Source: a virus (Duplodnaviria; Heunggongvirae; Uroviricota; Caudoviricetes). Taken from it: DNA of 64,000 bases. The position numbers and the translations under genes are program-made. The notes below the pieces were generated by a model that was not told the origin of the DNA, did not search any database, and saw only the letters and a program-made list of their open reading frames with translations. Shown one piece after another: positions 63,166-63,256 of this stretch. The DNA lies in the IMG/VR virus record IMGVR_UViG_3300024265_000032. One strand, given 5' to 3'. Position 1 is the first letter of the stretch. Every line of letters starts with the position of its first letter.

Positions 63166-63256
63166 GAAGTGGTAGCTCAACGGTAGAGCTTGTCATAGGT
63201 CGCACCTACGCATAACTCCGGATAGTTGGTTATGAGTTCGAATCTCATCCACTTCC
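63166..63256 (+). tRNA. atypical long (91-nt) tRNA-like gene; anticodon unresolved
   Basis: acceptor GAAGTGG/CCACTTC, canonical D-arm TAGCTCAACGGTAGAGC and T-arm ATGAG-TTCGAAT-CTCAT, but 41 nt between D- and T-arms with no standard 5-bp/7-nt anticodon arm (only TAGGT-CGC-ACCTA and TAACT-CCGGAT-AGTTG hairpins). Confidence 0.55.

What the first reader, a model, noticed from the sequence alone, without database searches (positions are those of the whole stretch)
63166..63256. Atypical 91-nt tRNA-like gene with no canonical anticodon arm
It has a perfect acceptor stem, D-arm and T-arm. Between them lie 41 nt that do not form a standard 5-bp/7-nt anticodon stem-loop. Only short hairpins form (TAGGT-CGC-ACCTA; TAACT-CCGGAT-AGTTG). 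This could be a class-II tRNA with a very long variable arm, a tRNA with a small insertion or intron, a tRNA-like decoy, or a suppressor-like element. Its flanking neighbours are clean canonical tRNAs, so it is unlikely to be a sequencing artefact.
Basis: seen in the sequence. Interest (0 to 1): 0.5.

Follow-up and report, generated by a model that had tools for sequence, protein, structure and literature searches.

The report
Odd long tRNA in phage cluster
This is a real, conserved phage gene for an oversized, irregular tRNA (extra base pair in the acceptor stem, stretched anticodon arm, extra side hairpin) sitting between two normal tRNAs; it is an unusual variant of a known kind of molecule and its amino acid and job are still unknown.

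Summary
Window 63165-63257 (+) has perfect acceptor, D and T arms around a 42-nt middle. Rfam's tRNA model can only match by skipping that middle (43.6 bits). The element lies in a tailed-phage genome, 2-4 nt from canonical tRNA-Phe and tRNA-Asp.

Two diverged homologues (L285/L286, L299) show it is under selection:
- It is 90-94% identical between phages, more conserved than the neighbouring genes.
- One T-stem pair changes on both sides (A-U to G-C).
- The A·C mismatch in the first hairpin is repaired in both homologues.
- The triplet CGC, U33 and a purine at position 37 are kept.
- The A after an 8-bp acceptor helix is kept, while the trailers differ.

The three-sequence consensus is a class-II-type cloverleaf: an 8-bp acceptor plus 5-bp T stem, an elongated bulged anticodon-type hairpin topped by CGC, and a variable-arm hairpin. 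Its scaffold is closest to a phage family of long-armed tRNA-Ile(UAU).

No intron model yields a canonical arm. It has no G3:U70, so it is not a tRNA-Ala, and it is not a tRNA-Sec or an allo-tRNA by their defining features.

Verdict: a new variant of non-canonical tRNA. Its function (GCG decoding or a non-decoding role) is unresolved.

The parts
63165..63172 (+). Acceptor stem, 5' strand (GGAAGTGG, 8 nt).
   Evidence: Pairs with 63249-63256. All 8 pairs are invariant in three homologues.
63175..63189 (+). D arm: stem GCTC/GAGC and loop AACGGTA carrying the GG for the elbow.
   Evidence: Aligned to the Rfam tRNA model with high posterior probability. The loop varies among homologues (AATTGGCA, AACGGTTA) while the stem is kept.
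63190..63193 (+). Four-nt linker TTGT where canonical tRNAs have the single nucleotide 26. T63191 and G63192 can pair with A63212 and C63211, extending the next stem, with T63193 bulged.
   Evidence: RNAalifold consensus of three sequences and pair counts.
63194..63210 (+). Anticodon-type hairpin: stem CATAG/CTACG (one A·C mismatch here), 7-nt loop GTCGCAC with U33, the triplet CGC at 63201-63203, and A37. In this copy it can close further to a CGC triloop.
   Evidence: ARAGORN calls tRNA-Ala(cgc). The homologues have TATAG/CTATG, fully paired, with loops GTCGCGA and GTCGCGC.
63213..63228 (+). Variable-arm hairpin TAACT-CCGGAT-AGTTG.
   Evidence: Present in the minimum-free-energy fold and in the consensus fold. 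Identical in all three homologues. MAFFT aligns it with the extra hairpin (loop YAGATWR) of the long phage tRNA-Ile(UAU) family.
63232..63248 (+). T arm: stem ATGAG/CTCAT and loop TTCGAAT.
   Evidence: Rfam alignment. The first pair is A-U here and G-C in both homologues, a change on both sides, so the stem is 5 bp.
63249..63257 (+). Acceptor stem 3' strand (CCACTTCC) followed by discriminator A63257. No CCA is encoded.
   Evidence: The A is conserved in all three homologues while the trailers differ: TTTA, CAAAA, TTAA.
63090..63162 (+). Canonical tRNA-Phe(GAA), ending 2 nt upstream of the element.
   Evidence: ARAGORN, and Rfam 63.4 bits.
63262..63335 (+). Canonical tRNA-Asp(GUC), starting 4 nt downstream of the element.
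   Evidence: ARAGORN, and Rfam 70.9 bits.

Best explanation
The element is a genuine, selectively maintained accessory gene of a tailed phage. It encodes a non-canonical, class-II-type tRNA.

Shown anatomy:
- an 8-bp acceptor stem plus a 5-bp T stem (13 bp, as in bacterial tRNA-Sec);
- canonical D and T arms;
- an elongated anticodon-type hairpin (about 7 pairs, one bulged U) whose apex carries U33, the triplet CGC and a purine at position 37;
- a second hairpin in the variable-arm position;
- discriminator A73, with no encoded CCA.

Its scaffold is most like a lineage of long-variable-arm phage tRNA-Ile(UAU) genes, from which it probably derives. The differences from that lineage are one extra acceptor pair, three extra nucleotides after the D stem and a replaced anticodon arm.

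Inferred mechanism:
- It is co-transcribed with tRNA-Phe and tRNA-Asp.
- It is cut out by RNase P and RNase Z and receives CCA.
- It is aminoacylated through anticodon-independent features (acceptor stem or variable arm), not by AlaRS, because G3:U70 is absent.

Conditional on it being a real tRNA, I put about 45% on it reaching the ribosome at GCG codons. The rest goes to it being matured, and possibly charged, but not used for decoding.
For: - The tRNA model matches the acceptor, D and T arms (43.6 bits). ARAGORN draws an 8-bp acceptor stem and a long variable arm.
- There are three independent homologues: the window/L003 copy, L285/L286 and L299.
- Against L285, the element is 90.4% identical, versus 86.1% for the RNA ligase gene, 81.7% for the DUF6899 gene and 80.8% for tRNA-Phe. 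The L299 copy is still about 94% identical by my count, although its DUF6899 protein is only 68% identical to the window's.
- Changes preserve structure. The T-stem pair changes A-U to G-C on both sides. The anticodon-stem A·C mismatch becomes A-U and C-G becomes U·G. 98.9% of cells are paired, against 31-46% when the partners are slid.
- The loop keeps G32, U33 and CGC. Position 37 is A, G, G. Position 38 is C, A, C.
- RNAalifold on the three sequences returns the five-arm fold. The tandem two-hairpin models are jointly the best in energy.
- The A after the 8-bp helix is conserved while the trailers differ.
- Among 450 unique tRNAs from all fetched loci, the best scaffold matches are the long tRNA-Ile(UAU) genes of L226, L151 and L236 (scores 34, 34 and 32; mean 3.8, sd 7.5). 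MAFFT aligns both hairpins with that family.
- Precedent exists for tRNAs with a longer acceptor stem, a longer anticodon stem and a long variable arm (PMC5389517), and for broken anticodon stems that still function (PMC7609411).
Against: - There are only three homologues, and they are 90-94% identical. Only one pair changes on both sides, and the shuffle controls are not significant (161/500). Alternative folds of the middle cannot be excluded statistically. The L285 copy on its own prefers a different 7-bp helix.
- G32 is unusual. In two of three copies the loop could close to a triloop.
- No aminoacyl-tRNA synthetase identity can be assigned. Without G3:U70, any decoding of GCG would be missense, and GCG is an ordinary codon in this phage (123 of 10,796 codons).
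- A covariance model of the tRNA-Ile(UAU) family does not separate the element from ordinary tRNAs (41.9 bits against 35-37 for its neighbours).
- The gene is absent from many close relatives.
Confidence: 0.6

Rival explanations
1. It is a non-decoding tRNA mimic. The molecule is matured like a tRNA but acts as a decoy, competitor or regulator. A possible target is a host tRNA-targeting defence nuclease or a tRNA-binding enzyme. It never reads codons.
For: - It is an accessory gene with patchy presence among close relatives.
- Sequence conservation is very high, including in the loops.
- It has irregular decoding features: G32, a possible triloop, an over-long anticodon arm and no AlaRS identity.
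- The phage carries RNA-repair genes. The RNA ligase lies about 400 nt upstream, with one small gene between, and an RlaP-family nucleotidyltransferase is at 28836-29759.
- Many allo-tRNAs are thought not to be used in translation (PMC5389517).
Against: - There is no direct evidence of any target. The middle has no complementary partner in the window beyond chance.
- U33, a purine at 37 and an invariant triplet are what a real anticodon loop would keep.
- tRNA-Sec decodes on the ribosome with comparable dimensions (own knowledge).
Confidence: 0.25
2. It is a decaying tRNA pseudogene. A former long-armed tRNA whose anticodon arm has degenerated is kept only as a passenger in the cluster.
For: - It shows several departures from the canonical form at once: extra nucleotides, a mismatch and G32.
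- It has been lost in many relatives. A Phe/Asp fusion in L300 shows deletions by recombination inside the cluster.
Against: - It is more conserved than the flanking tRNA-Phe and the neighbouring genes.
- It has a compensatory T-stem change, and the mismatch is repaired in the homologues.
- All five helices are intact in three lineages.
Confidence: 0.08
3. It is a tRNA interrupted by a 19-nt intron or insertion in the anticodon loop (ARAGORN -i: tRNA-Pro(agg), intron GCACCTACGCATAACTCCG). The intron would be removed by cleavage and then sealed by the phage RNA ligase.
For: - ARAGORN's intron mode finds this parse.
- An RNA ligase gene lies just upstream.
- The metagenome scan returned tRNA-Asn-like genes with 20-22-nt insertions in the anticodon loop (L269, L275, L278).
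Against: - Exhaustive enumeration gives only this one stem (TTGTC/GATAG, 2-3 Watson-Crick pairs). It has no nucleotide 26, a non-purine at 37 in every variant, and A34 in ARAGORN's variant.
- It is the worst model energetically (-22.9 and -17.1 kcal/mol).
- The supposed anticodon-intron helix is not kept in L285.
- The supposed intron includes the hairpin that is 100% conserved.
Confidence: 0.04
4. It is a histidine-accepting tRNA-like molecule. In this reading the stem is 7 bp, G63165 is G-1 and pairs with C63256 as C73. That is the bacterial HisRS identity, which works largely without the anticodon.
For: - G-1 and C73 are both present and invariant.
- G-1 tRNAs with foreign anticodons are charged by E. 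coli HisRS (PMC5389517).
- The architecturally similar element in L159 also has G before, and C after, a 7-bp stem.
Against: - The next base, A63257, is conserved while the trailers vary, as expected of a discriminator after an 8-bp helix.
- The closest scaffold relatives have A73.
- No GUG triplet occurs anywhere in the middle.
- No CCA is encoded, so 3' processing should leave the first unpaired base (inference).
Confidence: 0.03

Closest known systems
Long-variable-arm phage tRNA-Ile(UAU) genes. Examples are IMG/VR loci L151, L226 and L236. Cultured phages such as Acinetobacter phage vB_AbaS_qsb1 and Vibrio phage Achelous carry them annotated as 'tRNA-Ile'.
   Same: - The acceptor, D-arm and T-arm sequence is nearly identical (GAAGTG-TAGCTCAACGGTAGAGC ... 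A[A/T]GAGTTCGAATCTC[T/A]T-CACTTC).
- The discriminator is A73.
- There is an extra hairpin between the anticodon arm and the T arm with GAU in its loop.
- The length is 91-96 nt.
- It sits in phage tRNA arrays.
   Different: - The family has a 7-bp acceptor stem, a single nucleotide 26, a clean 5-bp anticodon stem with loop YUUAUAC, and an encoded CCA.
- The element has an 8-bp acceptor stem, a 4-nt linker, the triplet CGC, G32, a different register in the extra hairpin (loop CCGGAU) and no CCA.
Bacterial selenocysteine tRNA (Rfam RF01852 class; 8/5 fold).
   Same: - 8-bp acceptor plus 5-bp T stem.
- Long variable arm.
- Elongated anticodon stem.
- 5' end GGAAG, as in E. coli selC and tRNA-Ser (own knowledge).
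- Length of about 93-95 nt.
   Different: - Triplet CGC, not UCA.
- D arm of 4-5 bp with a 7-8-nt loop, not 6 bp with a tetraloop.
- A73, not G73.
- No Sec machinery was seen among the 20 large window ORFs scanned against Pfam.
allo-tRNAs and selC* tRNA-Cys (Mukai et al. 2017, PMC5389517).
   Same: - Non-canonical tRNAs with a longer acceptor stem, a longer anticodon stem and a long variable arm.
- Anticodons that do not match the likely charging identity.
- Some occur in phages.
- Function is often unknown.
   Different: - Those have 12-bp acceptor branches (8/4 or 9/3) and a Sec-like D arm.
- This element has 8/5 (the first T-stem pair covaries) and a canonical D arm.
Intron-containing tRNAs (archaeal/eukaryal bulge-helix-bulge type; bacterial group I type).
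   Same: There is extra sequence in the anticodon region, and an anticodon-proximal helix can be drawn.
   Different: - Removing any segment does not leave a canonical arm.
- 19 nt is far too short for a group I intron.
- The genome is a bacterial-type phage genome with a tmRNA.

Membership tests
tRNA (Rfam RF00005) | Score at or above the gathering threshold, with acceptor, D and T arms present. | tested here: met
   43.6 bits against a gathering score of 29, E 3.5e-07. The hit is missed under the default filters on the whole window.
tRNA (Rfam RF00005) | A 5-bp anticodon stem with a 7-nt loop, directly after nucleotide 26. | tested here: not met
   The model skips the arm, replacing 18 positions with 37 nt. 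The stem-loop exists but lies behind a 4-nt linker.
Class II (long variable arm) tRNA | A stem-loop in the variable region between the anticodon arm and the T arm. | tested here: met
   TAACT-CCGGAT-AGTTG appears in the minimum-free-energy fold, in ARAGORN's parse and in the three-sequence consensus, and it is invariant. Because it never varies, there is no covariation evidence for it.
tRNA-Ala | G3:U70 in the acceptor stem (AlaRS identity; established knowledge). | tested here: not met
   The acceptor pairs are G-C, G-C, A-U, A-U, G-C, U-A, G-C, G-C. No G·U appears in either register.
tRNA-Ala | Alanine anticodon (NGC). | tested here: met
   CGC sits at 63201-63203 and is invariant in three homologues.
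Bacterial tRNA-Sec | 13-bp acceptor branch (8/5). | tested here: met
   There are 8 invariant acceptor pairs plus a 5-bp T stem whose first pair covaries.
Bacterial tRNA-Sec | UCA anticodon, a 6-bp D stem with a 4-nt loop, and G73. | tested here: not met
   The triplet is CGC, the D stem is 4-5 bp with a 7-8-nt loop, and the discriminator is A73.
allo-tRNA (Mukai 2017) | 12-bp acceptor branch in an 8/4 or 9/3 configuration. | tested here: not met
   The configuration is 8/5. T-stem pair 69-85 is A-U in one copy and G-C in two.
allo-tRNA (Mukai 2017) | Serine identity (charged by SerRS through the variable arm). | not testable with these tools
   This needs an aminoacylation assay. The 5' GGAAG and the long arm are only suggestive.
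Bacterial tRNA-His | G-1 paired with C73. | tested here: inconclusive
   G63165:C63256 is present. The conserved A63257 before variable trailers favours an 8-bp stem with A73.
Bacterial tRNA-His | GUG anticodon. | tested here: not met
   There is no GTG in 63190-63231.
Intron-containing tRNA | Removing one segment restores a canonical anticodon arm (5 bp, 7-nt loop, U33, R37). | tested here: not met
   Enumeration of all segments of 0-32 nt gives only TTGTC/GATAG, with no nucleotide 26 and a non-purine at position 37. This parse has the worst energy.
Long-armed phage tRNA-Ile(UAU) | UAU anticodon in the loop YUUAUAC. | tested here: not met
   The loop is GUCGCAC, GUCGCGA or GUCGCGC.
Long-armed phage tRNA-Ile(UAU) | Shared scaffold and an extra hairpin with a GAU-containing loop. 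| tested here: met
   These genes are the top scaffold matches among 450 tRNAs and MAFFT aligns the hairpins. However, the family covariance model does not discriminate the element from ordinary tRNAs.

The most novel reading that the evidence does not exclude
The element is a phage-made tRNA with tRNA-Sec-like dimensions. It is charged through anticodon-independent identity with an amino acid other than alanine, or is not charged at all. The phage uses it deliberately in one of two ways. Either it miscodes or recodes GCG, or it acts as a tRNA decoy in the conflict with host tRNA-cleaving defences, alongside the adjacent RNA-repair genes.
Probability: 0.2. Interest if true: 0.75.

Novelty: new variant of a known kind. 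Interest (0 to 1): 0.45.

Why it matters
Phage tRNA genes are usually read as simple codon-supply or anti-defence spares. This gene combines three features: an 8/5 acceptor branch, a stretched anticodon arm and an anticodon with no matching synthetase identity. That combination is only partly covered by the known irregular classes (tRNA-Sec, allo-tRNA).

If it decodes, it would be a natural missense or recoding tRNA in a phage. If it does not, it would be a tRNA mimic with another role. Either way, it shows that standard tRNA finders mislabel such genes (here as 'tRNA-Ala').

The search also turned up related oddities in viral contigs that deserve a systematic survey:
- tRNA-Ile(UAU) genes with a second anticodon-like hairpin;
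- tRNA-like genes with a pseudoknot in place of the anticodon arm.

Tried and rejected
- Exact-motif scans of IMG/VR for the two middle hairpins gave only chance hits outside any tRNA context. The loop-based pattern and the 5'-half pattern found nothing in IMG/VR. The 5'-half pattern also found nothing in GTDB genomes.
- No similar DNA exists in cultured phages beyond generic T-arm matches.
- The middle is not repeated in the window and has no complementary target there.
- A covariance model of the long tRNA-Ile(UAU) family (R1) scores the element at 41.9 bits, barely above ordinary tRNAs. It therefore cannot prove membership.
- The L159-type elements share the layout, but their 42-nt middle is not alignable and forms a pseudoknot that the element cannot form. 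I rejected them as homologues of the middle.
- The intron models were enumerated and rejected.
- The YrlA (Y RNA-like) hit overlapping the T arm scores 26.7 bits against a gathering score of 69. It only reflects tRNA-likeness.
- Two- and three-sequence pair counts cannot separate the alternative folds statistically.
- Eight neighbour-protein look-ups found no copy of the element. A ninth found no contig on record. Relatives there carry Asp only, Phe-Asp, Asp-Met, Glu or none at this locus.

Full report
**What is there.** Window 63165-63257 (+) reads GGAAGTGG TA GCTC AACGGTA GAGC TTGT CATAG GTCGCAC CTACG CA TAACT CCGGAT AGTTG GTT ATGAG TTCGAAT CTCAT CCACTTCC A.
- Rfam's tRNA model matches 63166-63256 at 43.6 bits (gathering 29). 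It does so only by a local skip that replaces the whole anticodon arm (18 model positions) with 37 unaligned nucleotides.
- With default filters on the whole window the hit is lost.
- ARAGORN calls a 93-nt 'tRNA-Ala(cgc)' with an 8-bp acceptor stem, a distorted D stem and a long variable arm.
- In intron mode ARAGORN calls a 'tRNA-Pro(agg)' with a 19-nt intron.

The only correction is that a 5-bp/7-nt stem-loop does exist, displaced by three extra nucleotides.

**Context.** The window is a tailed-phage genome, and Pfam scans of its large ORFs found:
- a T4-type large terminase at 39099-41228;
- an RlaP-family RNA-repair nucleotidyltransferase at 28836-29759 (-);
- a phosphoribosyltransferase at 60982-61581;
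- an RNA ligase at 61795-62763;
- a DUF6899 protein at 62772-63062.

A tmRNA lies at 60432-60782. The element sits 2 nt after a canonical tRNA-Phe(GAA) and 4 nt before a canonical tRNA-Asp(GUC). None of the three encodes CCA. No cultured phage has similar DNA.

**Homologues.** A separate contig (L003) has the identical element. Its tRNA-Phe differs from the window's by one base. Pattern scans of IMG/VR and GTDB genomes found no copy. Walking out through the neighbouring proteins gave two diverged copies:
- X' in L285/L286. The DUF6899 protein there is 86% identical.
- X'' in L299. The DUF6899 fragment there is only 68% identical to the window's.

Other relatives lack the element:
- Asp only: L284, L287, L288 and L296.
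- Asp-Met: L297 and L298.
- Phe directly followed by Asp: L301-303.
- Glu: L001 and L002.
- No tRNA at this locus: L290-295 (L290-292 carry Pro and Asn about 2.5 kb downstream).

L300 carries a Phe/Asp fusion made by a deletion through the shared T-loop sequence. The gene is therefore an accessory, recombination-prone member of the cluster.

**Selection.**
- Between the window and L285 the element is 90.4% identical. The RNA ligase gene is 86.1%, the DUF6899 gene 81.7% and tRNA-Phe 80.8%.
- The differences are structured. The first T-stem pair changes on both sides (A-U to G-C).
- In the first hairpin the A·C mismatch of the window copy is A-U in both homologues, and C-G becomes U·G.
- The loop keeps G32, U33 and CGC. 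Position 37 is A, G, G and position 38 is C, A, C.
- The D-loop varies in length. The second hairpin and all eight acceptor pairs are invariant.
- The A after the 8-bp helix is conserved while the trailers differ (TTTA, CAAAA, TTAA). This makes it the discriminator of an 8-bp stem, not a base following a His-type C73.

**Structure of the middle.**
- RNAalifold on the three sequences returns the following fold. The acceptor stem is 8 bp and the D stem 5 bp. A long hairpin follows: two lower pairs, a bulged U, five pairs, then two weak apical pairs around CGC. A variable-arm hairpin and the T arm complete it.
- I compared four explicit models on the window copy and the L285 homologue (X/X', in kcal/mol):

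| Model | X | X' |
|---|---|---|
| 7-nt loop | -22.2 | -28.3 |
| Triloop | -26.7 | -23.4 |
| Alternative 7-bp helix | -19.6 | -29.0 |
| Intron parse | -22.9 | -17.1 |

- The tandem two-hairpin topology (7-nt loop or triloop) is jointly the best. The intron parse is clearly the worst.
- Pair counts cannot separate the models with so few sequences. X' alone prefers the alternative helix. The fold of the middle is therefore the best supported one, not a proven one.
- An exhaustive search for any excisable segment that leaves a canonical arm gives only the weak TTGTC/GATAG stem. That stem has no nucleotide 26 and a non-purine at position 37.

**Ancestry.**
- A scan for class-I D arms followed by an over-long middle found a family of 91-96-nt phage 'tRNA-Ile(tat)' genes. 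They have a normal anticodon arm and an extra hairpin with loop YAGATWR. They sit in large phage tRNA arrays and are annotated tRNA-Ile in cultured Vibrio and Acinetobacter phages.
- Among 450 unique tRNAs in all fetched loci, the scaffolds closest to the element are three members of this family: L226, L151 and L236.
- MAFFT aligns both hairpins of the element with theirs.
- Relative to them the element has one extra G:C acceptor pair, three extra nucleotides after the D stem, an anticodon stem changed on both strands with pairing kept at 4 of 5 positions, CGC instead of UAU, and no CCA.
- A covariance model of the family does not separate the element from ordinary tRNAs (41.9 bits against 35-37). 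The relationship therefore rests on scaffold sequence similarity.

**Comparison with known kinds.**
- The trio of longer acceptor stem, longer anticodon stem and long variable arm is what defines tRNA-Sec-like molecules (selC*, allo-tRNA; PMC5389517, PMC7609411). Bulged anticodon stems are tolerated in some tRNA-Pyl (PMC7609411).
- Defining features nevertheless fail. It is not a tRNA-Sec: CGC, A73, canonical D arm.
- It is not an allo-tRNA: 8/5, not 8/4 or 9/3.
- It is not a tRNA-Ala: no G3:U70.
- It is not a tRNA-His: no GUG, and A73 is favoured.
- It is not intron-containing.
- It is best filed as a new variant of non-canonical class-II-type tRNA.

**Function.**
- Shown: a conserved, structured, tRNA-shaped gene in a tRNA operon.
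- Inferred: co-transcription, RNase P/Z processing, CCA addition, and aminoacylation by an anticodon-independent route.
- GCG is an ordinary codon in the phage (123 of 10,796 codons, 16% of Ala codons). Decoding it with a non-alanine charge would be costly. This keeps a non-decoding role (decoy or regulator) a serious rival, given the neighbouring RNA-repair genes.
- The middle has no complementary target in the window.

**Verdict.** The finding is real and the class-II reading is essentially right. The gene is a new variant of a known kind, of moderate interest. Amino-acid identity and role are open.

Noticed in passing
window 6830-6900 (-): A second irregular tRNA in the same phage. Rfam tRNA scores 45.7 bits and ARAGORN calls tRNA-Asp(gtc). 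The anticodon stem TCCCC/GGGGA closes on a 5-nt loop AGTCG, or alternatively 4 bp with a 7-nt loop carrying A33. The first acceptor pair is an A·G mismatch. It duplicates the anticodon of the canonical tRNA-Asp at 63262-63335.
   Followed up: partly
window 60432-60782 (+): A complete tmRNA (Rfam 137.4 bits, tag peptide GESQFRMAA) encoded in a tailed-phage genome. It lies upstream of a phosphoribosyltransferase gene, an RNA ligase gene and the tRNA cluster.
   Followed up: no
L151, L162, L179, L183, L189, L191, L206, L223, L226, L227, L262 (IMG/VR); PV107591.1 38087-38157: A family of 91-96-nt phage tRNA-Ile(UAU) genes with a class-I D arm. After a normal anticodon arm they carry a second hairpin whose 7-nt loop (CAGAUAA, UAGAUAG or CAGAUUA) resembles the anticodon loop of tRNA-Ile(GAU), CUGAUAA. 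A canonical variable loop follows. GenBank annotates them simply as tRNA-Ile. I found no paper describing the extra hairpin.
   Followed up: partly
L159 2308-2398 (-), L274 2119-2212 (-), L277 1061-1153 (-), L281 523-613 (+), L279 731-825 (-), L270 5982-6073 (+): tRNA-like genes of about 91 nt with intact acceptor, D and T arms (Rfam tRNA 45.8 bits for L159, with the anticodon arm skipped). In these the anticodon region can form an H-type pseudoknot in the same position. Stem sequences differ between loci (CGGT/ACCG, GGAG/CTCC, GTTAC/GTAAC; AAGGA/TCCTT, AAGGC/GCCTT, AAGCG/CGCTT). Under the stricter criteria used for the shuffle control, L270 forms none. For the other five, 0.4-11% of shuffles do as well, so this is suggestive but not proven.
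   Followed up: partly
L269 5850-5927, L275 5350-5427, L278 4748-4823: tRNA-Asn(GUU)-like genes with a 20-22-nt insertion inside the anticodon loop (CTGTT | insert | AA). The anticodon stem covaries (TTTCG/CGAAA against TTTCA/TGAAA). The origin of the contigs (phage, bacterium or eukaryote) was not checked.
   Followed up: no
L300 1859-1932: A chimeric gene. The 5' part of tRNA-Phe is joined to the 3' end of tRNA-Asp through the shared GGGTTCGA T-loop sequence. This is a deletion by recombination between neighbouring tRNA genes, and it explains the patchy content of this cluster.
   Followed up: partly
L268 8290-8450: A tRNA-like sequence of about 130 nt. One acceptor stem (TGGCGAA...TTCGCCA) encloses a D arm, an anticodon-like arm and two T-arm-like hairpins (GGGTTCAAATCCC and AGGTTCAAATCCT). 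ARAGORN did not call it.
   Followed up: no
L159 1214-1291 (-): A c-di-GMP-I-GGC riboswitch-like match (45.9 bits, below the gathering score of 59) in a 135-kb viral contig, near its tRNA genes.
   Followed up: no
L155, L156, L169, L175, L181, L182, L185, L194, L195, L198, L200 and other GVMAG loci: Many giant-virus and other IMG/VR contigs carry tRNA genes with short introns after the anticodon. Most look like tRNA-Tyr(GUA), with the motif GACTGTAG followed by the intron, as in eukaryotic tRNA-Tyr. The isotype is read from the sequence only and was not tested.
   Followed up: no
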